The position numbers and the translations under genes are program-made. From assembly GCA_037479045.1 (NCBI GenBank), contig JBBFLL010000008.1, forward strand, positions 1,944 to 65,943: a stretch of 64,000 nucleotides of DNA, read 5' to 3'. The stretch comes from Brevinematales bacterium. GTDB lineage: Bacteria; Spirochaetota; Brevinematia; Brevinematales; JAOACQ01. Of this stretch, positions 29,671 to 44,853 are shown one piece after another. Every line of letters begins with the position of its first letter. Position 1 is the stretch's first letter. A model generated the notes under the pieces. The model made no database searches and was not told where the DNA came from. It saw only the letters and a list, made by a program, of their open reading frames with translations.

Positions 29671-29704
29671 CTTTTTCCCTCTACCAAAGAAAAATATACA
29701 TTTT

Positions 29705-29733
29705 ATTTTAAGACAATAATCTAAATTTCTCAA
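29705..29733 (-). promoter_or_regulatory. sigma70-type promoter for the speA operon
   Basis: The minus strand reads TTGAGA, 17 nt, TAAAAT, about 35 nt upstream of the corrected speA ATG. Confidence 0.5.
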
Positions 29734-29801
29734 TAAAAAATGGTAAAAAAGTTGGAAGGGGGGAATTTCAAACTTTTGACTTTATAACTTTATAACTGCT
29801 A

Positions 29802-31758
29802 CTCATAATCCCTTATTCAGGTCATTCCTTTCTTACAATAAGTAACTATCCGTACAACTACTTTAGCAACATAAGTCGTAATCCCTTATTCAGGTCATTC
29901 CTTTCTTACAATATATATCTTAATGCTGTTTTTTTACAAGAGATAGGTCGTAATCCCTTATTCAGGTCATTCCTTTCTTACTAGAATAAATTATCATCGC
30001 TGTTGTATTCGCTTATATAAAGTCGTAATCCCTTATTCAGGTCATTCCTTTCTTACATTCTGAAAAAAGAGTTATTAATTTAAATAATACTAATAGTCGT
30101 AATCCCTTATTCAGGTCATTCCTTTCTTACAATTAGACCAGAAGACATTTTAATTTTACCAAGAGGGTCGTAATCCCTTATTCAGGTCATTCCTTTCTTA
30201 CAAGGATACTATAAGAATGCTATTACCAGAAAAATATAATTAGTCGTAATCCCTTATTCAGGTCATTCCTTTCTTACAAAAAATAACTAAGGAGAGAACA
30301 TATTGGCGGTTTTTATTGTCGTAATCCCTTATTCAGGTCATTCCTTTCTTACATTATAACAGAAATAATAATTATAACAGAAATAATTACAACGTCGTAA
30401 TCCCTTATTCAGGTCATTCCTTTCTTACAAAAGTTACAAGATGCAAGAAGAGAGCTTTCAGAAAGGCGTCGTAATCCCTTATTCAGGTCATTCCTTTCTT
30501 ACTTTTGTGGACGAATATGGAAAATATTTAAGTAGAAACCAAGTCGTAATCCCTTATTCAGGTCATTCCTTTCTTACTCTTCCTTGACGGTGAAGTATTT
30601 TTATCGAAAGATGTGTCGTAATCCCTTATTCAGGTCATTCCTTTCTTACAAAAACACGCAGGGAGTTTTACTCCCTGCTTTTTTATGTCGTAATCCCTTA
30701 TTCAGGTCATTCCTTTCTTACCGGCGACACCTTCTCATTTACGATGCGAGAGGCGAAAGTCGTAATCCCTTATTCAGGTCATTCCTTTCTTACAAATATT
30801 ATATCAAATATGATTGGTGTTAAATTAGAAATGAGTCGTAATCCCTTATTCAGGTCATTCCTTTCTTACGGGGAGATATTCTTATCAAAATACCCCGTTA
30901 GGGGGTATTGTCGTAATCCCTTATTCAGGTCATTCCTTTCTTACTTCAGCTTCTCGATGAGGGAAGCGAAAGCAGTGACATGCTTGTCGTAATCCCTTAT
31001 TCAGGTCATTCCTTTCTTACGGAAAAGTATGTTGGATCAATTTGACCACAAAAAGAGTTGTGTCGTAATCCCTTATTCAGGTCATTCCTTTCTTACAAAA
31101 AGTGAAATAGTTATTATAAGATATGCTTGTGGACAGTCGTAATCCCTTATTCAGGTCATTCCTTTCTTACAAGAACACAACAGCATAATTATAACAGAAA
31201 TAATAATGTCGTAATCCCTTATTCAGGTCATTCCTTTCTTACTAGATACAAAGTTTCATTTTACTAAAATAAAATTTACTATGTCGTAATCCCTTATTCA
31301 GGTCATTCCTTTCTTACTAAAATTATCAAGGGTGGATATGAAAGTCTTATAAGGGTCGTAATCCCTTATTCAGGTCATTCCTTTCTTACTATCGCGCAGC
31401 AGACACTATATATCGAAGCGCTGAACAGTCGTAATCCCTTATTCAGGTCATTCCTTTCTTACCGACCATAGCGGCTGGCTCTATGTAAAAGAGCCTCACA
31501 AGCAGTCGTAATCCCTTATTCAGGTCATTCCTTTCTTACGGGATGAGCGCAATGGGATATTGCCCGTTGCAAAATTATGTCGTAATCCCTTATTCAGGTC
31601 ATTCCTTTCTTACAAATTTCTTTTGGTAAGAAGTTATGGAGCGAAAAAAGTCGTAATCCCTTATTCAGGTCATTCCTTTCTTACGGAGGAAAATATGGAA
31701 ACAAATTTAAAAGAAATGGCAAAGTCGTAATCCCTTATTCAGGTCATTCCTTTCTTAC
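29802..31758 (-). CRISPR. CRISPR array, 27 repeats of 35 nt and 26 spacers of 36-42 nt
   Basis: Plus-strand repeat is GTCGTAATCCCTTATTCAGGTCATTCCTTTCTTAC. 26 copies are identical. The copy at 29802-29836 has 2 mismatches (CTCAT...), marking the trailer end. The leader and cas2 lie at the 31.76 kb end, so transcription is inferred on the minus strand (repeat GTAAGAAAGGAATGACCTGAATAAGGGATTACGAC). Confidence 0.97.
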
Positions 31759-31973
31759 TGCGGATTGCTTAACACATTAATAAATAAGAGAAAAGTCAAA
31801 CTTTTTCGCCAACCTGAAGATAAATCTGGTCAAGTCAATTTTATATCCTAACGAGTTTTTGCTTTTTATATTCCTTCCTGTTGTAGAAAAAGCAATTAAA
31901 AATTTACGCAAATTCCAACGATAAAACAATAGCCTCATTGATTTCAGAAGGTTGGCGAAAAAGTTTTTCATTT
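31759..31973 (-). promoter_or_regulatory. CRISPR leader
   Basis: 215-nt AT-rich non-coding stretch between the cas2 stop and the first perfect repeat. The degenerate repeat is at the opposite end of the array. No promoter hexamers were confidently placed. Confidence 0.6.
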
Positions 31974-32258
31974 TCATAAAATATTATAACTCTCATTCTC
32001 CAGAATTTCAAGTTTTCCAGGTCCGTATTTAGTTTGTTTTTGCCAGTCTTCTGTACAAACTTCAAAATATACAACAAAGTCTTCTTCTTCATTTATTATT
32101 CTTCCTATTTTATGATACAACTCATTTATGGTGGAAGGCTTTGCAATCATTTCAAAAACAGATTTCTGAACTCTTATTCCATAATTTTCCATAACCTTTG
32201 CTACTTTTTGTAGTCTTTTTTCATCTCTTATATCATAAATTACAAGCCAGTTTTTCAT
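31974..32258 (-). CDS. cas2: CRISPR-associated endoribonuclease Cas2 (copy 2, array-proximal)
   Basis: 94 aa, beta1 with Asp (LVIYDIRDEKRL), YGIRVQKSVFE ferredoxin-fold pattern. Confidence 0.85.
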   Translation of the reverse strand: MKNWLVIYDIRDEKRLQKVAKVMENYGIRVQKSVFEMIAKPSTINELYHKIGRIINEEEDFVVYFEVCTEDWQKQTKYGPGKLEILENESYNIL

Positions 32259-32530
32259 AATATTTCAAATGCCTCCAATCTTATAAGTTCCCCCTTGCCC
32301 TGCTTTATCGCCTTTCTGGTGCAGGATTCACATAGTGGATAGATGAAAAGATAATCCTCCTTTAAATTTAAAATCTCCAGAAGATCTTTCACAATTTTAT
32401 CAAGAATCTTTTTGTCAGTTTCAAGTTGAAAAAATGATTTTTGAACTCTCAAGCCATATCTTTCAAGAGTAGTAGCAACTTTCCTGAGTCTTTTTTCATC
32501 AGAAATATCATAACATATCATATAAATCAT
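32255..32530 (-). CDS. cas2: CRISPR-associated endoribonuclease Cas2 (copy 1)
   Basis: 91 aa, MICYDISDEKRL, YGLRVQKSFFQ. 4-nt overlap with the second cas2. Confidence 0.85.
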   Translation of the reverse strand: MIYMICYDISDEKRLRKVATTLERYGLRVQKSFFQLETDKKILDKIVKDLLEILNLKEDYLFIYPLCESCTRKAIKQGKGELIRLEAFEIL

Positions 32531-32533
32531 ATT

Positions 32534-33598
32534 CTACCTCACTATCATCGGATTATATTCTATTTTCTCACTATTTACAACTCTATGGAAATGATTAACC
32601 TGTTCTCTTATAACTCTTTTGTAGGTAATGGTTTGCCCAAGAGGTTGATAGAAAATTTCTGTATCGAGCTTTTTTTCAAAATGTGTAATAGCTTTTTTTA
32701 TTCCTTCTTTTGTAAGTAAAACTCCTTTTTTTTCTTCAATCGCAACATTTTCACTTTCTTCCTCAAGGGGATATTCCTCGTCTTTCTTAGAAAAAATCTT
32801 TTCTTCAAAATCTTCTGGATTCAATATTCCAAGATTAAACAATGCCACTGTCGTAGTATCCACTATAGGTGTCCTGAACTCTTCCATAAGGTCAAAGGCA
32901 AGAGTCTTTTTCCCATAGTCAACCGAATGAAAGAAACCAGCAAAAGGGTCAAGTCCTTCAACTTCAATGGCAGACTCAACTCTGTAAAATAATAAAGTAT
33001 AAAGAAAACTCAATACAGCATTAACATTGTCTTCTGGTGGATTTTTACTTCTGCCATTGAAGATTGCCCAATCCTGATTTATAGCATATCTGAAAACCGA
33101 AAAGTAATATTTCGCCGCCATTCCTTCATAACCTCTAACTTGTTCAATACTTTCAGCCCTATCTATAGAATCTGAAATCTGCTTGGTTTTTTGAATAGCC
33201 TCAAATATTTGGGAATTGTTTTCTTTTTTTCTGTTTATCCTTTGCATAAAGTTAAGCTGGTTTCTTATTTTACCACTGACTATAGACTTTGCAAATTTCA
33301 GTTTGAATTCATCATTTTCGAGTAATCTGTATTGTTTTAGCCTGAGATAAACATTTTTGCTATCGCCAAAAGATAGCCTTCCGTTAAATCTGCCGTTTCT
33401 GTTCAAAAAAACAGTATCGATTTTGTATTTCATTATAAGTGAGAGTGCCTGCCCTGTAATTTCTACACCACCTAAGAAAACAAGCTGTTCTGTTTTGAAT
33501 GGAAATATGGTAGTCCTGCATTCTGGAGAATGAAGAACAAGAGTTTCACCTTCTTTACATAATTTTCCACCACTACTTACTATGTAGATTATGGACAT
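32534..33598 (-). CDS. cas1: CRISPR-associated endonuclease Cas1
   Basis: GFFHSVDYGKKTLAFDLMEEFR catalytic His/Asp-Glu block and NAVLSFLYTLL. Start set to MSIIYIV (ATG 33598 preceded by AGGGGGA); the listed upstream 31 aa are rejected. Confidence 0.9.
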   Translation of the reverse strand: MSIIYIVSSGGKLCKEGETLVLHSPECRTTIFPFKTEQLVFLGGVEITGQALSLIMKYKIDTVFLNRNGRFNGRLSFGDSKNVYLRLKQYRLLENDEFKLKFAKSIVSGKIRNQLNFMQRINRKKENNSQIFEAIQKTKQISDSIDRAESIEQVRGYEGMAAKYYFSVFRYAINQDWAIFNGRSKNPPEDNVNAVLSFLYTLLFYRVESAIEVEGLDPFAGFFHSVDYGKKTLAFDLMEEFRTPIVDTTTVALFNLGILNPEDFEEKIFSKKDEEYPLEEESENVAIEEKKGVLLTKEGIKKAITHFEKKLDTEIFYQPLGQTITYKRVIREQVNHFHRVVNSEKIEYNPMIVR

Positions 33599-33680
33599 AA
33601 TTATCCCCCTTTGTGCCACTGAAATATTCACCTTAGTTCTATGACCGGAGAAAAAGATTAAAAACTTATTGAATATTGTC

Positions 33681-34982
33681 TTATTTATCATTTAAAACAA
33701 CTTTATAAACTTCATTAAAGGAATTTTCTAATTCTTTTTTTAACTTCTCGATTTTTATTGGTTGGATAAATCCACAGTGATTTATATCATTTCTAATGTT
33801 TCTTAATCTGTTAAAGATATTAAAAAGCTCTTTTATGTCGTTATTTTCCTTCATCTTTTTCAAGATTTCCAAAATATCATTGTCACCTTTATATTCTTTT
33901 TCATTTATGTTTGGATTCATTACAAAATAAATGGCTGCACTTAACTCTTCTCTTATCTTTTTATTGTTAATTTTATCTTTGTATTTAGTTTTTTCAATCA
34001 AATAAGTAATAAGCATTTCTTGTAATATCGTAATTCCCTGTTGTATCAGATTGTGTTCGATACACCATTTTACTGCTCTAAAACCATTTAAAATATCATC
34101 ACTGTTGAATTCTGTAATTTTTTCTTCTATTTTTTCAAGTAAAGGTATTAAAGCATAACTTAAGTTGAGGTCGGCTCTTTTAATTTCATTTAATAACTTC
34201 TTCGCCTTATTAAAATTTTCTCCCTTTATAATTTGTAGTCCTCTACAGTATAGAATTTCATTTGTTCCAATATCTATCCAGTCTATAAGATGTTTAATTT
34301 TTTTGTAATTATCATCAATTTTTCCACAAAAAGTTTTTTGAAGGGGTATGATGTGTTGATTTACAATTTCTTTTATTTTTCTTGTTGAACCAGAACTTAC
34401 AAATTCTCTTGCTCCTATGCCCCACTCCATTATATCATAATATGGAGTTAAATCAAAAATAGGTGCATTTCTGTCTTTTATATCCCTTTGTCTTACTAAT
34501 GAAATGGGTCCAAGTGTTTCAAATGCTCCATAATATATTCCTTTTATTTTTATATTTTTTAGGAAACGGGCGTAATTTAATAAAGTGATACCAAGCAGTG
34601 GGAGAAGCCTGAAACCATGGGTAATATCAAAAAATACTTCATCACCATCTTTGAATAGGTTAAATACTTTGCTAAAAATTTGCCAAATTTCGTTTTCATT
34701 TGAACCTACTGGAATATCTTTTACAGGTTCAACAATATCATTTTTCTTCAATTCGGATATTTTTTCTTCTAACTTTGGCCAATTCCTATCTTCTGCTTCT
34801 TTAGTGAGAAGAATATAAATTTTGTCGTTGTTGTCTTTTTTAAATTCTTTACAAAAGATTTTTAGCATTGCTTCCTGAACGAATTTAACATTTTCCACTT
34901 TTTGATTTCCAAAATAATAGTTACATTCAACGTAATCATTTGTACCAAGAAAACTTAAAAATACTTTCCTATTATTATTCAT
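33681..34982 (-). CDS. csx1: Csx1-family CARF-HEPN protein (DxTHG motif type)
   Basis: N-terminal Rossmann-like strand VFLSFLGT, DxTHG motif FFDITHGFR, C-terminal HEPN R-x4-H (RNIRNDINH). 433 aa. Confidence 0.8.
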   Translation of the reverse strand: MNNNRKVFLSFLGTNDYVECNYYFGNQKVENVKFVQEAMLKIFCKEFKKDNNDKIYILLTKEAEDRNWPKLEEKISELKKNDIVEPVKDIPVGSNENEIWQIFSKVFNLFKDGDEVFFDITHGFRLLPLLGITLLNYARFLKNIKIKGIYYGAFETLGPISLVRQRDIKDRNAPIFDLTPYYDIMEWGIGAREFVSSGSTRKIKEIVNQHIIPLQKTFCGKIDDNYKKIKHLIDWIDIGTNEILYCRGLQIIKGENFNKAKKLLNEIKRADLNLSYALIPLLEKIEEKITEFNSDDILNGFRAVKWCIEHNLIQQGITILQEMLITYLIEKTKYKDKINNKKIREELSAAIYFVMNPNINEKEYKGDNDILEILKKMKENNDIKELFNIFNRLRNIRNDINHCGFIQPIKIEKLKKELENSFNEVYKVVLNDK

Positions 34983-35589
34983 AAAGAAATTTTACCTCCT
35001 CTTTAAACAAATTTTTTGGATTATCCAATATATATTTCCTTATTTCTTTCAATTCCTCTCCATTTCTTATGATGTGATCATAAAACCGGGATTGCCACTG
35101 GAAATAACATAAATTCGATCTTCTGATTTCATATGTACAACGTCCTTTAAACCACCTCACAATTTTTGATAATGAATTTTTTGTTAACATCGGATTGTGA
35201 ATTCCTGTAATTCCGCCATTTTTATATCCATTTTCGGTATTTTCGATGGTAGGAACGCGATTAATCGCGTTCCTACCATCGAAAATATCATCGACACCGT
35301 TCACAACGACATTATCATTTTCTAAAATAATAATTATACCATGAATATGGTCTGGCATTATAACATAATAATCCAATTTGACATTTTCAAAATGAGATGG
35401 AATTTCGTTCCAGGTTACATCGACAATTTTTCCTATTTCTGACAAAATTACCTCACCATTAATTACCTTTGACAGAATATTCATCCTTTCTTTTACACAT
35501 ATCGTTACAAAATATGCCCCCGGCGAAGAATAATCCCATCCTTTAAGCCTTATAGATTCATTACGATATTTATTCATAAACAATGACAC
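34975..35589 (-). CDS. IS200-like Y1 HUH transposase family protein (RAYT-like)
   Basis: SIRLKGWDYSSPGAYFVTIC N-terminus, HUH motif MPDHIHGIIII, catalytic Tyr helix WQSRFYDHIIRN. GTG start with RBS GGGAG over the upstream stop. 8-nt overlap with the csx1 ATG. Confidence 0.8.
   Translation of the reverse strand: MSLFMNKYRNESIRLKGWDYSSPGAYFVTICVKERMNILSKVINGEVILSEIGKIVDVTWNEIPSHFENVKLDYYVIMPDHIHGIIIILENDNVVVNGVDDIFDGRNAINRVPTIENTENGYKNGGITGIHNPMLTKNSLSKIVRWFKGRCTYEIRRSNLCYFQWQSRFYDHIIRNGEELKEIRKYILDNPKNLFKEEVKFLYE
35238..35287. repeat. 50-nt perfect palindrome inside the HUH gene
   Basis: TATTTTCGATGGTAGGAACGCGATT|AATCGCGTTCCTACCATCGAAAATA. All 25 positions pair, checked base by base. Confidence 0.9.
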
Positions 35590-35592
35590 AAT

Positions 35593-35988
35593 CTACTCCC
35601 AGTATCTATATTTTCTGAATCCCATATGTTTGAAAACAATTCGCTTTTCCACACTTCCATCTGGGTTTCTCACTTCTTCTGCCTTTCTTTCACTTGTGGC
35701 ATAAATCGGGACAAAACCATTCTTTAAGCAAAAATCCACAATTGTAAATGTCGCTCCAAATTCTCCCTGTACAAGTATAAAATCCCCTTTCTCTGCATTA
35801 CTTTCAAGCCAATTTATGATTTCTTCTGTAAATAGTCTGTGTCTATTCTCATCTGGCGGCATCTGTGACCATATATTTTTTTGCCTTATAGGTGGCTCAA
35901 TGATTTCTGTGACTTTGAGTTTCTCTTTTGCCTCAATTATTTGCTCTTCTGTGAGTGTGTGGTTGAGTAAGACTAATAGTTTGGGCAT
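35593..35988 (-). CDS. small type III-associated protein, Csx20-like (tentative)
   Basis: Start set to MPKLLVLLNH (ATG 35988 after GAGGA). The LNHxLTxEQ...GDFILVQGEFGA...PIYATSERK...FKHxGFRKY pattern resembles what I recall of the Csx20 family. Not verified by search. Confidence 0.45.
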   Translation of the reverse strand: MPKLLVLLNHTLTEEQIIEAKEKLKVTEIIEPPIRQKNIWSQMPPDENRHRLFTEEIINWLESNAEKGDFILVQGEFGATFTIVDFCLKNGFVPIYATSERKAEEVRNPDGSVEKRIVFKHMGFRKYRYWE

Positions 35989-36020
35989 AGTTATCCTCAA
36001 TTTTGAAATCATAAAAAATT

Positions 36021-37277
36021 CTATCCTATTCCAAGGATATTTTTTATTTTTTTTACTTTTTCTTTCTGTTTATTACTTACAGATTTTTCATCCCATTTTT
36101 TACACAATTTAAAATACTCCATTAATGCATTAGCTATTTTCTTTTTGTCTTCAATACTTTCTATCTTATCAAGTTTATTGTATATTTCAAAAACCTTTTG
36201 CTCATCCTGTGGGGACGAATTTAGCTTTGATAAGTTATAAATATCTCTTTCTATCTCACTCATTGATTCGAGTTTTCTTTTTTCTTCTTCCTCTTTTTGT
36301 CTTTGGATTTTTTCTTTTTCAATTCTTTCTCTTTCTTTTAATAATTTTTTATATTCTTCTTCTAAATTTTTATCTTCTTCATATTTTACTTCATTAAATA
36401 ATCCATAGCCTAAAGAAGTTTTTGCTCCTATTCCTTCTTCTGTAAGGGCTTTTACCAATGTGTCTTTAACTTTTAAAGTCAAATCACACTCTTTCTTTTC
36501 TATTCTCTCTTTTTTCTCATTTCGATATATTTTATTCTTTCTAACGATAGTCCGAAAAACAAAAGTTGTTCCGGGTTTTACTGTTAAAAACTTTATAGGA
36601 TTTGGTTCAAGATAATCGGCTGGAGGCTTATCGTTTTCGTAATAATCTTTATAATGTGGATTTATTATATCAATATGAAGTTCTGGAACACTTAACGGAT
36701 AAGCATCAAGGAATATTACTCCGCCCATTTCTTTTTGAGTGCCAAAGTAATATGCAATTTCCTCGATTTTATCATCCTCAATATAAAAATTTCCTTTTTT
36801 ATCTTTCTTAATCATACTTTTGTCATTTTTAATCTTGCCAGAATTTAATAAATTCAACATAGTTGCAAACCTCACTACTCCCTTTATGCTTGAAGCGGGG
36901 ATGTAAGGTATCCCAAGATTATAGTCAAAAACCATACTTATCTCATGGGGATGTGGTTGTCCAATGCCTGTAATAAGGGGAGATTTTGTCTTTGCCTGGA
37001 TTACAATAACTTCATATTGATCAGATGGAAATGATTTATAAAATTCTATTTGGGAAAGGTGTTTTTGTTTTAGCAAACCAGGTAAAGAAACTCTTAAACT
37101 AGCAAATTTATCTTTATAATAATTAACTGCATTATTGCTATTTCCTTGGTTATCTGAAGCCTTGTAATTAATATCATTTACTGGTACAAATTTATTATAC
37201 CATAATCCAAAGTTTCCATTAAAATTATTGTTTATTATATCTTTTATATCAATTCCAATAGGATATAAAACCGACAT
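36021..37277 (-). CDS. cmr6: type III-B RAMP protein Cmr6 with C-terminal extension
   Basis: RAMP motifs SSIKGVVRF and glycine-rich loop GAKTSLGYGLF, followed by a further 124 aa that are Lys/Glu-rich. Confidence 0.85.
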   Translation of the reverse strand: MSVLYPIGIDIKDIINNNFNGNFGLWYNKFVPVNDINYKASDNQGNSNNAVNYYKDKFASLRVSLPGLLKQKHLSQIEFYKSFPSDQYEVIVIQAKTKSPLITGIGQPHPHEISMVFDYNLGIPYIPASSIKGVVRFATMLNLLNSGKIKNDKSMIKKDKKGNFYIEDDKIEEIAYYFGTQKEMGGVIFLDAYPLSVPELHIDIINPHYKDYYENDKPPADYLEPNPIKFLTVKPGTTFVFRTIVRKNKIYRNEKKERIEKKECDLTLKVKDTLVKALTEEGIGAKTSLGYGLFNEVKYEEDKNLEEEYKKLLKERERIEKEKIQRQKEEEEKRKLESMSEIERDIYNLSKLNSSPQDEQKVFEIYNKLDKIESIEDKKKIANALMEYFKLCKKWDEKSVSNKQKEKVKKIKNILGIG

Positions 37278-37805
37278 CTAGTTTTCCTCCTTATTCTTAC
37301 TTTCTTCATCACTCAAAAAAGCCTCGGCGTATCTTTTGAACCACTCAAGTAATGCCAATGTTTCTTTTTGAATTGATAAGAAATCTTTTTGATTTAAGTT
37401 ACAAAAAATTTTTTCTACAAAACTTTTTATCATAATATTAAATTTTTTTCTATCATTCTTTTCTTCGGGTGTATTCTCAATTGATACAAGTAAATTATAT
37501 GGATTGTCAGATTGTTGAAACCATTCGGTTATTATTTTTAATAAAAAACCTTCCTTTTTCTTTTCGAAATCAATATGTTGTTTCTTTGAATTTTCATCAA
37601 ATTTGCTGGCTTTTGCAAGCCAGAAAGCAAGTGCCTGACCAAGACCATTCTGAAGTATCATAGAGGGTGCTCCAGATGCAAAGGATTTGAAATTTTTGTT
37701 GTCAAGGCTTTTATAATTTGACAAAATTTCTTCTACTTTTCTTAATGCAAAAGCTGCTCTTTTCTGGGCTAAAGTTCTGATTTCTTTATTCTGACACTCT
37801 GACAT
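37278..37805 (-). CDS. cmr5: type III-B small subunit Cmr5
   Basis: Helical 175-aa protein with SMILQNGLGQALAFWLAK motif. Positioned between cmr4 and cmr6. Confidence 0.7.
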   Translation of the reverse strand: MSECQNKEIRTLAQKRAAFALRKVEEILSNYKSLDNKNFKSFASGAPSMILQNGLGQALAFWLAKASKFDENSKKQHIDFEKKKEGFLLKIITEWFQQSDNPYNLLVSIENTPEEKNDRKKFNIMIKSFVEKIFCNLNQKDFLSIQKETLALLEWFKRYAEAFLSDEESKNKEEN

Positions 37806-37822
37806 AGTTTCCTCCTTTAAGA

Positions 37823-38770
37823 TTAAGGATTTTGATTATTTGATGGAGACAGCCATTTTATTCTGCATATACCTCTGCCAAGAGTTTCATCTCCACCTAT
37901 TTGTATAAAATTTTGTATGTTCTTCTCCACAATATTTTTTACCATTTCAGCTTGCAAGTTATTATTAAATGCTGAAGCACTATAGTAAACCACACTATAG
38001 AGTAAAGTATCTGAAGGTAAAAGTTCCTGGTACCTCAAGCTACCATCCTGCGTCGTTCCTTTTAAACTATCAATTTTAATCTGAGTTTGAACTTCAGTAC
38101 AATATGAGACACAGTAGTAAAAAATGTCATCAGAAACTAAAAGTAACCTTTCAATATTTTCAAATATGTCAGAAATTTGCTTAACCTCTGATTTAATTTC
38201 TGAGATTTCTTTAACTTCTACAACAACATCTTCAAGTATTATTTTTTGATTGTTGGTAATACCTCCTTTTAATGATATAGCTTCTTCGTCATTTATTTTT
38301 TTATATGATAGTTTGTTGTTTATATTAATTCCGCAAAATTCAAGGTCTCTTGAAAGTCTATCCAGAACAGCAGGGCAGGTAACGTGGACAAAAGGCGCAA
38401 TATTTGACCTCATAGGAAAGGCAAGAATTTTTGCATCAGAGACTGAGATTGCTCCTGGTGAATTTATCCTTTCTGAATTTATTTCTACCTCTTTTTCAGG
38501 TTCATCATCGTTATCATAATCAGTTCCAAATATAAAGTTTATTAAAGCCTTATCTTTTTTTTCCAAATTATCTCTTTTTTCATTTCCAGCAAATCTTCTG
38601 AAATGTTGTCTTAAGGCTCCTTTTACAGAAGAAGCCTGAATATGTGGCCAGTTTGTACACCTTTCTCTTTGAATAGGTAAATCAACCACTGATGTTGAAC
38701 TACCTGCTCCAGCATGAATGGGTGAAATGGCATAAAATGTAATTATTGATGTAAACTCTTTTTTTAACAT
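37823..38770 (-). CDS. cmr4: type III-B RAMP backbone subunit Cmr4
   Basis: PIHAGAGSSTSVVDLPIQRE (catalytic Asp region), ASSVKGALR, GGDETLGRG. Start set to MLKKEF after GGAGGA. Confidence 0.9.
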   Translation of the reverse strand: MLKKEFTSIITFYAISPIHAGAGSSTSVVDLPIQRERCTNWPHIQASSVKGALRQHFRRFAGNEKRDNLEKKDKALINFIFGTDYDNDDEPEKEVEINSERINSPGAISVSDAKILAFPMRSNIAPFVHVTCPAVLDRLSRDLEFCGININNKLSYKKINDEEAISLKGGITNNQKIILEDVVVEVKEISEIKSEVKQISDIFENIERLLLVSDDIFYYCVSYCTEVQTQIKIDSLKGTTQDGSLRYQELLPSDTLLYSVVYYSASAFNNNLQAEMVKNIVEKNIQNFIQIGGDETLGRGICRIKWLSPSNNQNP

Positions 38771-38781
38771 ATATTCCTCCA

Positions 38782-39753
38782 TTAACTTATTTTTACTGGA
38801 ATGCTGTTTGGCACTTTTTCTTTAAAGACACTGCCGGGTGGATAGTGCGCTTTAAGTGGTTTATGGAAGCCTTTTGCAAGGTCCCAGCCGCCGATGTAAA
38901 CCACTTTGTCAGTTACTATAAGATTTTCTTTATTTTCTTCACAAGGTATATAAGATAAGCTCATATAGAAAGAAGAATTATCTGATGATAGAGGGATATT
39001 ATTTATCTTTTCATACAGCCCAAATCTCTGTTCAGCACCGACTTTCATAATACCTTTATCGCCAAGACTAATATCCTTAGTTATGCCAAAAACTAAGGAA
39101 ACACATTCTTTAAGTCTGAAGTGTGCATAAGAATAAAGCTGGCTTTCTCTTACTGTTCTGTTATCGTATAATGCTATACCGATCCTTGGTTCTTTGCAGT
39201 AAAAATATGATGGTTTATAGATTTTAATATCATCTTTGATTTCGTCTTTATTGTTTATGGTAATAAAATCAGATAGTTTTATCCAATTTCCTCCGATAGA
39301 CTCGACAAAACCTTTTGCTTTTTGTGGCCATATCTTGATAAGTGCAGAAGAAGCGATAGGTAGATTGTTATCGATTAAAGTTCCTTTTAAGAATTTATTT
39401 TTAGGTATATTTATGACATCTTCTTCTTCAAAATTGTCCATAAACCAGGTATATGGGACTGGAATATAAATTTCATTATTCTTTTCAAATATAGGTCCAA
39501 TAATTTCAAAAGGTGGATTTTCAGATGGTTTCCCAATATCTTCATAGAAACTTTTGTCCAGTTTTCCATCTATATAGTCTTTGATAGTTTTTTCTTCAGG
39601 TAGTTTTTTTAGTAAATATGCAGTTCTTATAGCACCTATGATGGTTTGAGGTGGGGGTGGAAAAATGGATAAAAGAGAGGTTTTATCCTCCTCTGCACCT
39701 CTGATAAGTATTGTATCTACAGGTTTATACCTATACCAACAAATTTCGCTCAT
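38782..39753 (-). CDS. cmr3: type III-B protein Cmr3
   Basis: PPPPQTIIGAIRTA motif, IGGW near the C-terminus, position between cas10 and cmr4. Confidence 0.8.
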   Translation of the reverse strand: MSEICWYRYKPVDTILIRGAEEDKTSLLSIFPPPPQTIIGAIRTAYLLKKLPEEKTIKDYIDGKLDKSFYEDIGKPSENPPFEIIGPIFEKNNEIYIPVPYTWFMDNFEEEDVINIPKNKFLKGTLIDNNLPIASSALIKIWPQKAKGFVESIGGNWIKLSDFITINNKDEIKDDIKIYKPSYFYCKEPRIGIALYDNRTVRESQLYSYAHFRLKECVSLVFGITKDISLGDKGIMKVGAEQRFGLYEKINNIPLSSDNSSFYMSLSYIPCEENKENLIVTDKVVYIGGWDLAKGFHKPLKAHYPPGSVFKEKVPNSIPVKIS

Positions 39754-42568
39754 CTTTACCTCCTGCTATAAATGAAATGATTTTAAGTATGTCTGTGGAA
39801 AATATCCATTTATTTTTTTTGTCTTTTTTACATATAAGGCTTGCAATATTATCATATATTCCTTCATTGTCAACCTTACTATCATATACCTCCTCATTGC
39901 CAACCTTACTTGTTTTTGACTTTTTCAACAAACTTTTAATAAAATCTTTCAATTTTTCTTTGTAGTTTTTATCATCATTTTCAAGAATAGCTAGTACTCC
40001 CTCTTTATAGAAATCAAGATTGTAAATAAATGAGTTTGAAATTAAACCTTTTTGGGCTGTCAATTTTTCAATTGCGTCGATTACTTCATTGTCATTCCAT
40101 TTAAACCAGAATCTTCTATATTCTCCATTTCTTTTGTAAAGTTCAATGGCACAGGTATTTCTACCAGCTTCATCTTTTGCCACATCATCAAGAAGTTCAC
40201 GGGCTCTTCTTAACATAGCAGTCAAAGGCTCTTTGTAATGGCATATAAGTATAGAGGCTGAAATAGTAATATCCTCTGCACTTCCCATACCTATGGATAG
40301 CTTGCCGGGTTTAATTTCAAAATTGCTTTCTGTATTTAAGTATTTTACTTCATATCCATCATCAATTTTTGAAATAAGCCTGAAAGATCTTTTATAAGCC
40401 TCTGAAAGTTCTTTTGCGGCATTTATAGCCTCTGCTATTGGCAACACAGCACACACGTCATCACCACCTGCATAGATAAGTCTTCCTTCATACTTTTTTA
40501 TTATTTGTGGAACTTCATAGATTGCAAAATCAGCAAGTGCTTCAGAAATGGCAGAGTGAATAGCTGGTGTAATAAGCCTTGGCTTATCATATAGAATTTT
40601 CCAATTTTTTCTGTATTTCTCTTCAAAATTTTCTTGAATCATCCTATCTTTAATTTCTGGATGGATTACATCTTCCCAACTAGCTTCTATAGTTTCTCCC
40701 ATTATGAGCTTGCCCATCTTATCTCCATCCATCATAAGAATAGCATAGTATTTGTCTTGAATTTTTAAATCTGGTAAAGTTTCCCCATCCTCTGAATCAA
40801 ATAGAACTTGGGATTTTCTTTCTTTTTCTTCTTCATTAGTAATTTTTTTCCTCTCGAAATATTCATATAAAGCTATATAACTTGTTGAAGGAAAGTATTT
40901 TTTTGTAATTTCTTTGTTTTCATTAAGTTGGGTAAATGTTGAATAAAGTATATGTCTATCTTTTTCTTCTTTTTTTGATTCTGACCAAATCAATGCATCA
41001 GAAAGTAATCTTTTTGTAAGACATACTGAACAAAGTCTTTCGTTTTCTTTTAATTCTCCGCTTTCTTTTTTTTCGTCTGACTGAAAACCTAAGGTTTCTC
41101 TTAAAGTTTTCCAGAAATTATCCATATTTGTTTTATATTCATTTGCTGACTCATTTCCTGTGTATGGTTTATCTGTCAAAGCCTCAAGTTCTCCACAGAG
41201 AGTGCATTTCTTGCCTTGCTGTTCAGTTCGTATGTTTCTATAGGACATCTTTAATGCTGAAAGTGCCCCCTGTATGAGACCGTTTGAAAGAGGATAATAT
41301 TTGCCTACGTGGTTAGAGTCGCAATTGGGAGAGGAATATATTTTATGGAATATATCTACCTGCTCTTTTACTTTATTTATTAAGTTTTCTGAAAGTAAAT
41401 CTTTTGATTCGTCTAAATTTTGTGAAGTAACAAGGGGGGTCACAGCCCAATGAATATCCCAGTAATTTTCATTTTGTTCATCAAAAAGTGTTTTTATATT
41501 ATTCTGATCTTTGCTTGATTCTAACTTTTTTAACTTTTCTTTTATGTAGTCATAGACCATTAGTGTTATTTTTTTCCATTCAGTCTTTATATGAGTAGTG
41601 ATACCTTCTCCAATATCTTTACTATAATTCATTGGCACAAGGAACATAAATTTATTTGGGAATGTAGCTATATCAGTTTCTTTGTGAAGAGAAGGATAAT
41701 ACTTTTCTTCCATTTTCCAGTTTTTTCTTAAGTACTCAATCACAAGAGGCTGATCAACTATCGAAGGAAAGAGAATATGATCTGGACCGAGGTTTTCTAT
41801 AATCCATCTAATGCCTTCAAAAGTAAGCCAGGATAATAGTATCGATCCCGTCCAGAAGTCTCGTAATTTTCTTGCTTTTGTTATGAATGACTGGACAGGT
41901 GAGATGGAAAAAATCATTATACCTACATTGGTGATATTTTCTGTTATTTCAGGATTTGAATCTGGATTCATACACGAATAAATAGCTGAAGCAAGTGCAT
42001 TATGATGCCAAATAGAATGATCTGGTATTCTTGAATCTGCTGGTATTCTATGCCATAAAGCTCCAAGACCTGCCACATTGTCGTCACTAGCAAGTTTAAA
42101 TCTTAATGCAAGATGTGTGTAAAGAAAGCGGGCAATGGCAGATTTGTCTGAATTATTTGTAAAGTTATCTGAATATCTTATATTTTCAGAACTAATTCCG
42201 ATTACGTCCTTTATTAAATCTATAACTTCATTGTTATTGCCGCTACTTGGATTAATATTTGTTAAATTTAATTTTTCGCCACTTAATGGATGAGTTAAGA
42301 TAGGGCTACTTTTAAAATCAACAGCCCCATTTTGATTGGGATCTTTATTATAGGATGGGAAATCTCCCCTTTCAAAGCCAGAAGCTATTCTATCTGGTTT
42401 TTCTACTATGATATCGAAATTATCCGGTATCTGAAGTCCAAAGACCTCAAGAATTTTTTTAGCTCTTTCTTTATGACCTTGAATATCTAAAAGTTTGTCA
42501 GGTGGGTCGTGGAGATAGGCAAGAAGTTTGTTGTTCCAGTAGGTTTGATCTCGTTTTGTGAATGGCAT
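39731..42568 (-). CDS. cas10: Cas10/Cmr2, type III signature protein
   Basis: N-terminal HD region (AYLHDPPDK), Zn-ribbon cysteines (CTLCG...CSVC), cyclase palm with IYAGGDDV. Start set to MPFTKRDQ (ATG 42568 after GGAGGA). Confidence 0.92.
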   Translation of the reverse strand: MPFTKRDQTYWNNKLLAYLHDPPDKLLDIQGHKERAKKILEVFGLQIPDNFDIIVEKPDRIASGFERGDFPSYNKDPNQNGAVDFKSSPILTHPLSGEKLNLTNINPSSGNNNEVIDLIKDVIGISSENIRYSDNFTNNSDKSAIARFLYTHLALRFKLASDDNVAGLGALWHRIPADSRIPDHSIWHHNALASAIYSCMNPDSNPEITENITNVGIMIFSISPVQSFITKARKLRDFWTGSILLSWLTFEGIRWIIENLGPDHILFPSIVDQPLVIEYLRKNWKMEEKYYPSLHKETDIATFPNKFMFLVPMNYSKDIGEGITTHIKTEWKKITLMVYDYIKEKLKKLESSKDQNNIKTLFDEQNENYWDIHWAVTPLVTSQNLDESKDLLSENLINKVKEQVDIFHKIYSSPNCDSNHVGKYYPLSNGLIQGALSALKMSYRNIRTEQQGKKCTLCGELEALTDKPYTGNESANEYKTNMDNFWKTLRETLGFQSDEKKESGELKENERLCSVCLTKRLLSDALIWSESKKEEKDRHILYSTFTQLNENKEITKKYFPSTSYIALYEYFERKKITNEEEKERKSQVLFDSEDGETLPDLKIQDKYYAILMMDGDKMGKLIMGETIEASWEDVIHPEIKDRMIQENFEEKYRKNWKILYDKPRLITPAIHSAISEALADFAIYEVPQIIKKYEGRLIYAGGDDVCAVLPIAEAINAAKELSEAYKRSFRLISKIDDGYEVKYLNTESNFEIKPGKLSIGMGSAEDITISASILICHYKEPLTAMLRRARELLDDVAKDEAGRNTCAIELYKRNGEYRRFWFKWNDNEVIDAIEKLTAQKGLISNSFIYNLDFYKEGVLAILENDDKNYKEKLKDFIKSLLKKSKTSKVGNEEVYDSKVDNEGIYDNIASLICKKDKKNKWIFSTDILKIISFIAGGKDERNLLV

Positions 42569-42596
42569 TGTTATCCTCCATTGGATTTTTTGTTTT

Positions 42597-42648
42597 AATT
42601 TTCTGGTGGTAGCCACGTGATTAATCACGTGGCTACCACCAGAAAATT
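42597..42648. repeat. 52-nt perfect palindrome in the cmr1-cas10 intergenic spacer
   Basis: AATTTTCTGGTGGTAGCCACGTGATT|AATCACGTGGCTACCACCAGAAAATT. Same architecture as the palindrome at 35238-35287. Confidence 0.9.
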
Positions 42649-42653
42649 TATAA

Positions 42654-43648
42654 TTAGGGGCAAAGATAATTTATAAAATCTGCTGTTTTGTCATTACTTA
42701 AATTAATATCCGTCACATTCGGGTCGAAAGCAACATTTAGTTGAGTTATTATTGGAAAATATACCCCATTATACTTATAGCATGAAATATAAAGTGTCAT
42801 AACACTGTCTCGAAGAGTTGTAGCATACTTTCATTATCCTTATAGCATGAAATATAAAGTGGGGAAGCAAATCTTTTGGTTACTTGTTGTGGATTATTTT
42901 GCACACTTCTTCTACCGGCATATCCTGTGTAGTCACAGTTATAGTTGTGGGAAGCAGTACCTATTTCTTTTAATAGAGTATTATAATCATCAAATTTCTT
43001 TCCAACTTTAATAAATTTTACATAAGGAAAATTTAAAGTTAAATTATTATTAGTTAATTCAATTTGATCATTATTAACTTTAAATTTTTGTGGATTTATT
43101 TTGTCTAAATAATCAAAAACATTTGATATAATACCATTATTGATCCCAAAATTTTCATTATTTTTTTTGTTTATTACAAAAGAACCAAAGCCTCTTCTTG
43201 CTCTTCTACCAAGTCCTCCAACAATCGAGAAAAGTATAAATAGGTTTTCAAAAATATCTTTTGTGTTTTCATAACATGTCAATGAGATTTTGAAAATATT
43301 ATTGTCGGGTAAAAAACAGGGTAAGCTAAAATTTGGTTTTTCTTTGTGTGGAAGAGGTTTGTAATTATTATTTTTATTAAATTGTGGATTTTGTAAAATC
43401 TGTATTTTTAACTTGCTCTTTTTATCTGTTGAACCGAAAAGGTCTAATTCTGCTTCTTTAAGTTTTCCAATATCGCTATAATTTATTCCATACAAAGCCC
43501 TCCACCAGAATCTGAGTGCTCCCTTTATAGAAGCTGGTCTTAACTCACATTCACTTTGATTTGCTCCAGATAGGAACATAGGTGTTATGATTTCGCATTC
43601 AAACTCAAGCTTTTCCACGTTCTTGTATCTCTCAACATAAAATTCCAT
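42654..43648 (-). pseudogene. cmr1: type III-B RAMP protein Cmr1, interrupted by a 65-nt insertion (frameshift)
   Basis: ASIKGALRFWWRA motif. The listed ORF stops at 42797 inside the insert. The expected C-terminus (LYISCYKYNGVYFPIITQLNVAFDPNV...LCP*) continues in another frame down to 42654. Confidence 0.7.
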
Positions 43649-43666
43649 AAAGCCTCCTTCAAAAGT

Positions 43667-44569: not shown

Positions 44570-44792
44570 ATTTCTCTCTAATTATATTACAAAAATAAAA
44601 TATAAAATTTTGAAATTAATTATTAAAATTCTTATTAGAACATTTTTAATTTGTTTTTGGAGTTTAATAAGCAGAGAAAATATTTTAAAAGTTGGTTTTA
44701 ATTTACATAAGAATTTAAAAAAAATCAAATTTTTTGATTTTTTTTTATTTAAAAGGGGAAATAAATGGATAGCTGTAAATCAAGTCGCTAAC

Positions 44793-44821
44793 TTGACAGC
44801 CTTTTATTTTCACTTTAAAAT
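44793..44821 (+). promoter_or_regulatory. sigma70-type promoter for valS
   Basis: TTGACA (44793-44798), 17 nt, TAAAAT (44816-44821), about 33 nt before the valS ATG. Confidence 0.55.
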
Positions 44822-44853
44822 GTTTATTCTCTAAAAATAAACAGGGTATAAAA

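What the first reader, a model, noticed from the sequence alone, without database searches (positions are those of the whole stretch)
33681..35988. Three-gene accessory cassette (Csx20-like / Y1 HUH transposase-like / Csx1) wired into the Cmr operon
Between cmr6 and cas1 lie three same-strand genes with minimal spacing. The first is a 131-aa Csx20-like protein, the second an IS200-like HUH/Tyr protein, and the third a CARF-HEPN Csx1. Cas10 retains both the HD and GGDD motifs, so cyclic-oligoadenylate signalling to Csx1 is expected from established type III biology. The HUH protein is the unexpected member.
- Its RBS (GGGAG) overlies the stop codon of the upstream gene, with a 3-nt gap and a GTG start at 35589.
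- Its last codons overlap the csx1 ATG by 8 nt (...CTTTATGAATAA).
- There is no tnpB partner and there are no flanking subterminal hairpins, so it does not interrupt any gene.
- The HUH (HIHGI) and catalytic Tyr (RFYDHIIRN) motifs are intact.

This looks like a fixed operon component and not a passing IS. It suggests an ssDNA nicking/joining activity recruited to a type III system, for example acting on transcription-bubble ssDNA, on spacer substrates, or on the palindromes described below.
Basis: partly seen in the sequence, partly recalled or inferred. Interest (0 to 1): 0.75.

Follow-up and report, generated by a model that had tools for sequence, protein, structure and literature searches.

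The report
REP-associated transposase lodged in Cmr operon
The unexpected HUH gene between the Csx20 ring nuclease and the Csx1 effector belongs to a known family of domesticated REP-associated tyrosine transposases (TnpA-REP subclass 2.4) that carries its own palindrome inside the gene, and it is most likely a long-resident passenger in this type III-B CRISPR operon, not a new CRISPR component.

Summary
On the minus strand, csx20 (35593-35988), a 204-aa HUH/Y1 gene (34975-35589) and a CARF-HEPN csx1 (33681-34982) are packed between cmr6 and cas1, with a 3-nt gap and an 8-nt overlap.

The HUH protein is not an IS200 transposase and shows no sign of being a type III accessory. It is a TnpA-REP/RAYT of subclass 2.4, whose published hallmark is an in-frame "double-foot" GTAG...CTAC REP palindrome inside the gene. 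That palindrome is here (35238-35287), and a sister copy lies between cmr1 and cas10 (42597-42648). The catalytic Tyr is Y186 (RKYILDNP), not the Tyr of RFYDHIIRN.

Family members sit mostly next to housekeeping genes. A minority are wedged into other defence operons (hsdS-HUH-hsdR, cas3-HUH-cas6).

In near-identical Brevinematia assemblies the gene is retained, but the downstream effector is Card1 instead of Csx1, and the breakpoint lies 33 nt before the HUH stop. A more distant, decaying locus keeps only an 11-codon remnant.

Best reading: a co-transcribed, long-resident passenger. Interest is modest. The recurrent lodging at variable junctions of defence operons is the part worth following up.

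The parts
35593..35988 (-). csx20, a 131-aa cA4 ring nuclease family member
   Evidence: NCBIfam CAS_Csx20 E 2e-46 and PADLOC Csx20. Csx20 was shown biochemically to degrade cA4 (PMC12409355).
34975..35589 (-). HUH/Y1 gene: TnpA-REP (RAYT) of subclass 2.4, 204 aa, GTG start
   Evidence: Pfam Y1_Tnp. Aligns to 4ER8 TnpA-REP with Y186 = Y115, W165/Q166/R175 = W94/Q95/R104 and N190 = N119. H81, H83, Y186 and N190 are invariant in 40 homologues. The AF2 model's best PDB match is 4ER8. Motifs DHIH / WQ / YILDNP, length, and the in-frame REP between HuH and Y all match Quentin et al. subclass 2.4.
35238..35287 (.). Perfect 50-nt 'double-foot' REP palindrome inside the HUH ORF (core GTAGGAACGCGATTAATCGCGTTCCTAC), encoding DIFDGRNAINRVPTIEN in a loop
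   Evidence: RNA fold -39 kcal/mol, z -9.4. The encoded loop has pLDDT below 50. A palindrome occupies the same gene position in 59 of the 77 GTDB homologues that had a callable ORF (80 loci fetched) and in L004-L010. This is the known hallmark of subclass 2.4.
33681..34982 (-). csx1, a CARF(DxTHG)-HEPN effector of the TM1812/TIGR02221 family, 433 aa
   Evidence: It carries its own AGGAGG RBS inside the last codons of the HUH ORF.
42597..42648 (.). Second perfect 52-nt double-foot REP (core GTAGCCACGTGATTAATCACGTGGCTAC) in the cmr1-cas10 spacer
   Evidence: RNA fold -42.9 kcal/mol, z -14.4. It is 100% conserved in L001-L003. In L003 it begins 5 nt after the cmr1 stop.
33650..35007 (-). Replaced segment relative to sister assemblies: Csx1 cassette here, Card1 cassette in L001-L003. 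The left breakpoint is 33 nt before the HUH stop and the right breakpoint is in the cas1 5' leader.
   Evidence: blastn and MAFFT comparison; Pfam of the L001-L003 genes.
35740..35953 (-). Diverged patch inside csx20: 38 mismatches, about 18%, against 100% identity on both sides

Best explanation
The middle gene is a REP-associated tyrosine transposase (TnpA-REP / RAYT) of subclass 2.4. It is a domesticated-type, low-copy HUH/Y1 ssDNA endonuclease whose cognate substrates are GTAG-footed REP hairpins.

As in most members of this subclass, one "double-foot" REP sits in frame inside the gene, in a disordered loop between the HUH and Tyr motifs. A second REP of the same family sits in the cmr1-cas10 spacer.

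The gene has no visible promoter or terminator of its own and is packed head to tail with its neighbours, so it is most likely transcribed with the Cmr-csx20-effector operon (inferred). It has been resident at the junction between the ring nuclease and the cA4 effector for a long time in this Brevinematia lineage.

It is most likely a passenger and is not required for type III-B interference, cOA signalling or adaptation (inferred). Those functions are explained by Cas10 to cA4 to Csx1 or Card1, with Csx20 resetting the signal.

Any activity of the protein would be binding and nicking or joining of the GTAG REP hairpins when they are single-stranded (inferred from E. coli TnpA-REP). A side effect of the two roughly -40 kcal/mol hairpins on operon mRNA stability is possible but untested.
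For: Family assignment:
- Alignment to 4ER8 covers the catalytic Tyr, the metal ligand N and the GTAG-recognition residues W/Q/R.
- The best fold match is 4ER8.
- Motifs, length and the in-frame double-foot REP between HuH and Y match the published description of subclass 2.4.
- The palindrome is a DNA-level family trait. It is found in 59 of the 77 GTDB homologues that had a callable ORF (80 loci fetched). Its stem varies with compensatory changes. It is read in two different frames, 27 versus 21. Copies of the same REP flank the gene in 15 loci.

Not CRISPR-dedicated:
- Neighbours in 80 GTDB loci span 99 and 117 Pfam families, mostly housekeeping.
- Among the closest homologues, P0002 and P0010 sit among housekeeping genes and P0003 and P0007 sit in type I R-M operons.
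- There is no PADLOC hit.
- Csx20 and Csx1 form a known functional pair that is fused elsewhere.

Residency:
- The gene is identical in L001-L003 and in short metagenome contigs, and its 3' half is present upstream of csx1 in L101.
- No second copy is on record in those assemblies.
- A remnant, MKKYRKKSIRL, lies directly after csx20 in L092.
- The last 10-11 codons of the HUH ORF are simply the RBS region of whichever effector follows.
Against: - The gene has kept every catalytic and GTAG-recognition residue.
- It is 100% identical over 582 nt while parts of both neighbours were exchanged.
- It persisted through an effector swap.
- The only locus where it was lost is one in which card1 and cas1 are also frameshifted. 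No intact locus that lacks it was found among close relatives.
- Both REPs seen in 64 kb lie in the Cmr locus.
- Relatives recur inside other defence operons: hsdS-HUH-hsdR in L005, L006, L026 and L036, a partial R-M context in L004, cas3-HUH-cas6 in L047, and SNF2-HUH-methylase in L089.
- Co-transcription and dispensability have not been tested.
Confidence: 0.6

Rival explanations
1. Cassette-exchange helper. The TnpA-REP and its REPs create or mark a recombination-prone junction in defence operons, through ssDNA nicking or strand transfer at or near REPs or simply as portable homology. This would promote exchange of neighbouring modules such as Csx1 for Card1 and the csx20 patch.
For: - The HUH block (35739-35008) is 100% identical yet is bordered on one side by an 18%-diverged csx20 patch and on the other by a non-homologous effector cassette, whose breakpoint lies inside the HUH 3' end.
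- Relatives sit at other notoriously variable junctions, hsdS|hsdR and cas3|cas6.
- A diversifying-recombination role has been proposed for TnpA-REP next to prochlorosin genes.
Against: - The breakpoints show no REP, GTAG or shared motif.
- Any effector swap must break near the gene borders anyway.
- Most family members are in invariant housekeeping contexts.
Confidence: 0.15
2. True type III accessory. The HUH nuclease was recruited to act on ssDNA generated during immunity (transcription bubble, R-loop, rolling-circle invaders or prespacers).
For: - Tight translational packing between csx20 and the effector.
- An intact active site.
- Retention across strains and through an effector swap.
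- An independent case between cas3 and cas6 in an Anaerolineae MAG.
Against: - The family is huge and overwhelmingly not CRISPR-linked.
- None of the closest homologue contexts examined (P0002, P0003, P0004, P0007, P0010) is a type III locus.
- It is absent from PADLOC.
- L091 has cmr6-csx20 without it.
- TnpA-REP enzymes are specific for their own GTAG hairpins, which does not fit generic ssDNA targeting.
Confidence: 0.1
3. Decaying relic. The gene is an inactive leftover whose ORF is kept open only because ribosomes must traverse it to reach csx1 or card1 (translational coupling).
For: - The native C-terminal tail has been overwritten by effector RBS sequence in both variants.
- The HUH motif starts with D instead of the subclass consensus N.
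- NCBIfam scores it below the RAYT cutoff.
- It was deleted without trace of selection in L092.
Against: - All residues invariant in the family are present.
- The model core has pLDDT above 90.
- Several close homologues also have DH[IVT]H.
- Each effector has its own RBS, so coupling is not obviously needed.
Confidence: 0.1

Closest known systems
TnpA-REP subclass 2.4 of Quentin et al. 2018 (= RAYT group 4 of Bertels et al. 2017)
   Same: - HuH, WQ and YIxxNP motifs, length of about 200 aa, and an enlarged HuH-to-Y distance.
- 'Double-foot' REPs with 5' GTAG and 3' CTAC.
- A REP inserted in frame inside the gene between HuH and Y, in a peripheral loop.
- Low copy number and a patchy distribution over many phyla.

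   Different: - It is located inside a type III-B CRISPR-Cas operon between a ring nuclease and a cOA effector. None of the papers I read describes this context.
- HuH is DHIH, not NH[IFV]H.
- The palindrome is longer (25-26-nt arms, no loop) than most.
- No REP immediately flanks the gene. The only other copy in 64 kb is 7.3 kb away in the same operon.
E. coli TnpA-REP (RayT/YafM, PDB 4ER8) and its REP/BIME substrates
   Same: - Same fold.
- The catalytic Tyr, HUH, the N metal ligand and the W/Q/R residues that read GTAG are all aligned.
- The hairpins have a GTAG foot.
   Different: - About 16% identity.
- E. coli REPs are imperfect hairpins with an unpaired 5' GTAG and flank the gene. Here the GTAG is paired with CTAC in a perfect palindrome, and one copy is intragenic.
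- H123 of E. coli is W or L in this family.
IS200/IS605 TnpA (IS608, ISDra2)
   Same: HUH/Y1 fold and single catalytic Tyr.
   Different: - No subterminal LE/RE hairpins flank the gene.
- No TnpB, and no multiple identical copies on record.
- The Y motif is YIxxNP, not Y[IV]ENQ.
- Structural matches are weaker than to 4ER8.
Csx20-Csx1 / Csx20-Card1 ring-nuclease plus cA4-effector modules of type III CRISPR-Cas
   Same: csx20 lies next to a cA4-type effector, with an active GGDD Cas10 upstream. Fused Csx1-Csx20 proteins exist.
   Different: A transposase-family gene is wedged between the two partners.

Membership tests
TnpA-REP subclass 2.4 / RAYT group 4 | HUH/Y1 core with subclass motifs NH[IFV]H, WQ, YIxNNP | tested here: met
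   The protein has PDHIHG (D for N, as in several close homologues), W165-Q166 and Y186-ILDNP. H81, H83, Y186 and N190 are invariant in the 40-sequence alignment. Motif table from PMC6006769.
TnpA-REP subclass 2.4 / RAYT group 4 | [quoted passage not shown] | tested here: met
   The 50-nt palindrome at 35238-35287 is in frame, between H83 and Y186. The loop has pLDDT below 50. The same feature is seen in 59 of the 77 homologues that had a callable ORF. Published as unique to subclass 2.4.
TnpA-REP subclass 2.4 / RAYT group 4 | Associated 'double-foot' REPs (5' GT[AG]G ... C[TC]AC 3') | tested here: met
   Both palindromes contain GTAG-N20-CTAC around a GATTAATC centre.
TnpA-REP subclass 2.4 / RAYT group 4 | REPs of the same family within about 1 kb of the gene and dispersed in the genome | tested here: inconclusive
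   There is no flanking copy within 1 kb. One further copy lies 7.3 kb upstream. Only 64 kb of this genome could be read, and the GTDB scan did not return this species.
TnpA-REP subclass 2.4 / RAYT group 4 | Low copy number (about 1-2 per genome) | tested here: inconclusive
   The exact protein is on one contig in each of three assemblies, and the next relative in the database is 59% identical and from another sample. The MAGs may be incomplete.
TnpA-REP (RAYT) in general | Fold and active-site geometry of E. coli TnpA-REP; GTAG-reading residues W94, Q95, R104 | tested here: met
   phmmer alignment to 4ER8. The top Foldseek hit is 4ER8, E 1e-6, rmsd 2.9. Residue roles.
TnpA-REP (RAYT) in general | NCBIfam equivalog NF047646 score at or above the cutoff | tested here: not met
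   58.3 bits against a cutoff of 80. The model scores the window protein below its cutoff; I did not determine why.
TnpA-REP (RAYT) in general | Sequence-specific binding and cleavage of its REP ssDNA | not testable with these tools
   Needs biochemistry.
IS200/IS605 insertion sequence | Subterminal imperfect hairpins at both ends of the element flanking tnpA | tested here: not met
   There are no inverted repeats or hairpins in the 3-nt and overlapping junctions. The only hairpin is inside the ORF.
IS200/IS605 insertion sequence | Multiple near-identical copies | tested here: not met
   There is no other copy in the window (and the ORF lists) or on record in three assemblies. This is limited by MAG completeness.
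Type III CRISPR-Cas accessory gene | Recurrent, phylogenetically broad co-localisation with type III loci | tested here: not met
   - None of the 80 GTDB loci or the 5 closest homologue contexts examined is a type III locus.
- One is a type I locus (cas3-HUH-cas6).
- There is no PADLOC model.
- L091 has cmr6-csx20 without it.
Type III CRISPR-Cas accessory gene | Conservation at the same site in related loci | tested here: met
   It is present in L001-L003 and in the short contigs L096-L100, and its 3' half is present in L101. An 11-codon remnant lies at the same site in L092. All of these are within one Brevinematia lineage.

The most novel reading that the evidence does not exclude
Subclass 2.4 TnpA-REP genes, with their double-foot REPs, are not random passengers. 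They preferentially occupy the variable junctions of defence operons: ring nuclease|effector here, hsdS|hsdR in at least four loci, and cas3|cas6 once. There they would act as an ssDNA nick-and-join device, or a portable recombination handle, that exchanges neighbouring defence modules such as Csx1 for Card1. That would be a dedicated cassette-shuffling mechanism for immune loci.
Probability: 0.1. Interest if true: 0.8.

Novelty: new member of a known kind. Interest (0 to 1): 0.35.

Why it matters
If it is only a passenger, the value is mainly in annotation:
- The "IS200-like transposase" inside this Cmr operon should be read as a RAYT of subclass 2.4.
- Its internal palindrome is a family hallmark, not a CRISPR-specific signal.
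- The perfect palindrome also breaks short-read assemblies exactly at its centre.

The locus has two further uses. It is a clean natural example of effector swapping (Csx1 for Card1) behind the same Cmr complex and Csx20 ring nuclease in strains that are otherwise about 99% identical. It also shows a RAYT persisting in one operon through that exchange.

The function of RAYTs is a long-standing open question. A RAYT with only two nearby, well-defined perfect REPs, expressed from a defined operon, would be a tractable system for biochemistry. The recurrence of relatives inside type I R-M and CRISPR operons is a testable lead for a link between RAYTs and turnover of defence loci.

Tried and rejected
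1. Ordinary IS200/IS605 copy. Rejected: no flanking hairpins, no TnpB, no second copy on record, Y motif YIxxNP, best fold match 4ER8.
2. Recent lineage-specific insertion absent from related loci. This was my first reading of L091 and L092. I softened it after finding the KYRxxSxRL remnant directly after csx20 in L092.
3. The intragenic palindrome as a new discovery. Rejected: it was published as the unique feature of subclass 2.4.
4. The palindrome as an assembly artefact. Rejected: it is in frame, present in four or more independent assemblies, and homologous to the palindromes of relatives. The artefact runs the other way, because contigs L096-L101 end or start at its centre.
5. Genome-wide copy number of the gene and the REPs.
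6. Donor of the Csx1 cassette. Not found: the next Csx1 homologue is 44% identical.
7. Rfam scan of 29000-46000: no family.
PADLOC on the neighbours was not run.
Full report
**1. The observation**

The window carries a complete type III-B locus on the minus strand. Gene order is cas6, cmr1 (42797-43648), cas10/cmr2 (39731 to about 42568, with GGDD), cmr3, cmr4, cmr5, cmr6 (36021-37277), csx20 (35593-35988), an HUH/Y1 gene (34975-35589), csx1 (33681-34982), cas1, two cas2 genes and a 27-repeat CRISPR array (29802-31790).

- The Csx20 assignment is strong: NCBIfam E 2e-46 and PADLOC E 4e-49.
- The Csx1 assignment is strong: TIGR02221 plus DxTHG, PADLOC CARF_HEPN E 5e-115, and an RNDINH HEPN motif.
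- The middle protein passes Pfam Y1_Tnp (25.8 bits, cutoff 23). It matches NCBIfam REP_Tyr_transpos below its cutoff (58 bits against 80).

These are GGGAG over the csx20 stop, a 3-nt gap, GTG at 35589, and an 8-nt overlap with the csx1 ATG. Homologues begin MSLF/MTLY-KxKYR, which supports the GTG start. No minus-strand terminator-like site lies within the cassette. The coordinates and anatomy are therefore confirmed.

**2. Corrections to the observation**

- *Catalytic Tyr.* phmmer aligns residues 164-192 with residues 93-121 of E. coli TnpA-REP (4ER8). This places Y186 (RKYILDNP) on Y115, which the structure paper identifies as the catalytic tyrosine, with N119 as a metal ligand. In a 40-sequence alignment H81, H83, Y186 and N190 are invariant, whereas the Tyr of RFYDHIIRN (Y170) is Y or H.
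- *Hairpins.* The flanks have none, but the ORF contains a perfect 50-nt palindrome (35238-35287). A related perfect 52-nt palindrome lies in the cmr1-cas10 spacer (42597-42648). They are the only palindromes with arms of 15 nt or more in the 64-kb window. Both share the architecture GTAG-N4-CG-N-GATTAATC-N-CG-N4-CTAC. As RNA they fold at -39 and -43 kcal/mol, with z-scores of -9.4 and -14.4.
- *cas1 start.* cas1 most likely starts at about 33597, behind a GGGGG RBS. csx1 and cas1 are then about 83 nt apart.

**3. What the HUH gene is**

The protein has more than 4300 word-sharing relatives, many named "REP element-mobilizing transposase RayT". They come from Cyanobacteria, Bacteroidota, Patescibacteria, Marinimicrobia and other phyla. 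Apart from the same-species copies, the best hit is 59% identical.

The AlphaFold model has a confident core (pLDDT above 90) and a disordered stretch at about residues 90-135. That stretch is the part encoded by and around the palindrome. The best PDB match is 4ER8 TnpA-REP (E 1e-6, rmsd 2.9), ahead of the IS608 and ISDra2 transposases.

The palindrome is a family trait at the DNA level.
- It occupies the same position in the genes of L004-L010.
- It occupies the same position in 59 of the 77 GTDB homologues that had a callable ORF, out of 80 loci fetched.
- The outer stem GTAGAGAC/GTCTCTAC is conserved, and the centre varies with fully compensatory changes.
- It is read in two of the three frames (27 versus 21 genes). 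The third frame would put TAG in frame. This gives different peptides, RDAINRVST or VETRFIAS.
- In 15 loci further copies of the same REP lie beside the gene.

All of this has been published. Quentin et al. 2018 define TnpA-REP subclass 2.4, which equals RAYT group 4 of Bertels et al. Its features are NH[IFV]H, WQ and YIxNNP motifs, a mean length of 194 aa and an enlarged HuH-to-Y distance. Its REPs are "double-foot", with 5' GT[AG]G and 3' C[TC]AC. [quoted passage not shown]

The window protein fits every testable criterion: DHIH, WQ, YILDNP, 204 aa, an H81-to-Y186 distance of 105 aa, and a double-foot REP in frame. I therefore file it as a member of that subclass. It is neither an IS200/IS605 element nor a new kind of protein.

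**4. Is it a type III component?**

*Family-wide context*
- The immediate neighbours of 80 GTDB homologues fall into 99 (upstream) and 117 (downstream) different Pfam families. Most are housekeeping, and no family occurs more than three times.
- Among the closest homologues, P0002 lies after a peptidase M23 gene and P0010 sits in a DAP-epimerase/aminotransferase gene string.
- P0004 lies beside ORF6N/HTH genes.
- The protein and two close homologues match nothing in PADLOC.
- The two flanking genes are an established functional pair. Csx20 is a biochemically confirmed cA4 ring nuclease and the commonest ring nuclease in type III loci. Csx1-Csx20 fusion proteins exist, seen as a PADLOC CARF_HEPN_CSX20 model and as the 553-574-aa proteins P0217 and P0223.

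The HUH gene is therefore an interloper between partners. It does not recur in type III loci outside this lineage.

*Local history*
- Three other assemblies (L001-L003) carry the same locus at 98.5-99% identity, with an identical HUH gene at the same site.
- Five short metagenome contigs also carry csx20 followed by the first roughly 330 nt of the gene.
- No second copy is on record in those assemblies.
- In L001-L003 the downstream effector is Card1 (CARF_Card1 plus Card1_endonuc, 369 aa), not Csx1.
- The non-homologous segment is window 35007-33650. Its left breakpoint is 33 nt before the HUH stop, and its right breakpoint is in the cas1 leader.
- Each effector brings its own RBS, so the last 10-11 codons of the HUH ORF are simply whatever that RBS region encodes.
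- The Csx1 variant is also present in a Logan contig from another run (L101) and in an NCBI Brevinematales MAG.
- cmr3 to cmr6 are 100% identical to L001, and positions 35739-35008 (the csx20 3' end plus HUH) are 100% identical. A 214-nt patch inside csx20 (35953-35740) carries 38 mismatches.

*More distant loci*
- L092 (Brevinematia, III-A effector genes) has a homologous csx20-card1-cas1-cas2-cas2 module: Csx20 63%, Card1 51-57%, Cas1 82%. card1 and cas1 are frameshifted there.
- L092 has no HUH gene. However, the 88-nt spacer directly after the csx20 stop begins with ATG AAA AAA TAC CGA AAA AAA TCA ATC CGA TTA, which reads MKKYRKKSIRL. This is the family's N-terminal motif KYRxxSxRL, and 8 of 11 residues match the window protein. 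I read it as a deletion remnant.
- L091 (Csx20 about 70%) has cmr6-csx20 followed by a degraded CARF-like ORF. It has neither the HUH gene nor a remnant.

The gene has therefore been resident at the ring-nuclease|effector junction for a long time in this lineage, and it was lost where the module decays. Long residence, low copy number and slow, vertical evolution are what Bertels et al. report for group 4 RAYTs. Persistence alone does not argue for a CRISPR function.

**5. A pattern worth noting**

A minority of relatives are wedged, on the same strand and with overlapping or near-abutting stop and start codons, into other defence operons:
- hsdM-hsdS-HUH-RhuM-hsdR next to Thoeris-like genes (L005, L006);
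- HUH, a 96-aa ORF, then hsdR (L004);
- hsdS-HUH-hsdR in two Bacteroidota MAGs (L026, L036);
- cas3-HUH-cas6 in an Anaerolineae MAG (L047);
- SNF2 helicase-HUH-DNA methylase (L089).

Three of 71 upstream neighbours being HsdS is far above what a random gene would give. The independent events are few, however: L026 and L036 look orthologous, as do P0003 and P0007. Equally tight embedding is seen after Mur ligase, Wzy, DNA ligase and before DprA or a TonB receptor. The conservative reading is a promoter-less gene that settles in co-directional gene strings. On that reading, defence operons are over-represented because they tolerate and exchange insertions. The adventurous reading is given as the novel case.

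**6. Mechanism, with shown and inferred steps**

*Shown*
- Family membership and an intact active site with intact GTAG-reading residues.
- Two cognate-type double-foot REPs in the operon.
- Tight packing without terminators.
- Retention across strains and across an effector swap.
- Lack of general CRISPR linkage.

*Inferred from E. coli TnpA-REP*
- The protein binds the REP hairpin plus GTAG on ssDNA and nicks or joins nearby through Y186.

*Inferred from anatomy*
- It is co-transcribed with the Cmr-csx20-effector operon.
- It is dispensable for immunity, which runs as Cas10 (GGDD) to cA4 to Csx1 or Card1, with Csx20 degrading cA4 (for Csx20; that Csx1 and Card1 respond to cA4 is from general knowledge of type III signalling).
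- The two very stable hairpins may affect mRNA decay or processing, as REPs do elsewhere (untested).

I put 0.6 on the passenger explanation, 0.15 on a role in module exchange, 0.1 on a true type III function and 0.1 on an inactive relic.

**7. Novelty and verdict**

The gene, its internal palindrome and the REP type are already described. What I did not find described in the papers I read is the location inside a type III-B operon between a ring nuclease and its effector, and the recurrence of relatives inside R-M and CRISPR operons. I rate it a new member of a known kind, with interest 0.35. The proposal of a recruited ssDNA nuclease is not supported by comparative evidence, but no experiment excludes it.

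Noticed in passing
window 33650-35007 vs L001-L003 10583-11735: Strains about 99% identical across the Cmr genes carry different cA4 effectors behind the same csx20-HUH pair: Csx1 (CARF-HEPN) here and in L101, Card1 (CARF-PD-DExK) in L001-L003. Each cassette brings its own RBS. The closest other Csx1 in the database is only 44% identical, so the donor is unknown.
   Followed up: yes
window 35740-35953 (inside csx20): A 214-nt patch with 38 mismatches (about 18%) relative to L001-L003 is flanked by 100% identical sequence on both sides. This looks like a gene-conversion or recombination tract in the N-terminal two-thirds of the ring nuclease, and it co-occurs with the different effector.
   Followed up: partly
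window 42797-42861 (3' end of cmr1): There is a 65-nt insertion relative to L003, and the window shows the same 65-nt gap relative to L001 and L002. Its first 30 nt duplicate the following sequence (direct repeat 42767-42796 / 42832-42861, 97%). It shifts the frame and truncates Cmr1 to 283 aa, against 309 aa in L003 and 321 aa in L001, and replaces the last 36 residues of the L003 protein. It may be a real disrupted allele or an assembly error.
   Followed up: partly
L096-L100 (contig ends) and L101 (contig start): Six independent short-read contigs end or begin within a few nt of the centre of the 50-nt intragenic palindrome; L101 starts CGATTAATCGCG.... Perfect palindromes longer than k break de Bruijn assemblies, so genes of this family will often be split in metagenome assemblies.
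   Followed up: yes
L092 10403-10490, 10490-11633, 11700-12753: A Brevinematia III-A locus carries a homologous csx20-card1-cas1-cas2-cas2 module in decay. card1 and cas1 are frameshifted. The spacer after csx20 starts with MKKYRKKSIRL, an apparent remnant of the HUH gene's first codons.
   Followed up: partly
L005 5210-12014, L006, L004 740-3992, L026 5720-10486, L036 488-5671: Relatives of the HUH gene (35-53% identity) sit between hsdS and hsdR of type I restriction-modification operons, some with 4-nt overlaps. In L005 and L006 they lie beside RhuM and Thoeris-like TIR/SIR2 genes.
   Followed up: partly
L047 821-4894: In an Anaerolineae MAG a relative lies between cas3 (HD plus helicase) and cas6 of a type I CRISPR-Cas locus, 48 nt after cas3 and 3 nt before cas6.
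   Followed up: partly
window 31974-32530: Two tandem cas2 genes (91 and 94 aa) overlap by 4 nt, and an 88-nt stretch of them is 72% identical at the DNA level (repeat family D4). The same pair is present in L001-L003 and L092.
   Followed up: no
window 29802-31790 vs L001 13629 to beyond 20508, and L101 3294-3676: CRISPR array length differs greatly between otherwise near-identical loci. There are 27 repeats here. In L001 the array runs for about 7 kb or more to the locus end. In L101 only about 380 nt separate cas2 from the arginine decarboxylase gene.
   Followed up: no
window 39847-39906 (3' end of cas10): A 30-nt tandem direct repeat (80% identical) encodes the duplicated peptide KVGNEEVYDS / KVDNEGIYDN near the Cas10 C-terminus.
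   Followed up: no
A1 alignment: P0050, P0108, P0120, P0023: Some homologues carry two to four tandem copies of the palindrome-derived peptide, for example RDAINLCRDGINLCRDAINRVST. The intragenic REP region therefore expands and contracts.
   Followed up: no
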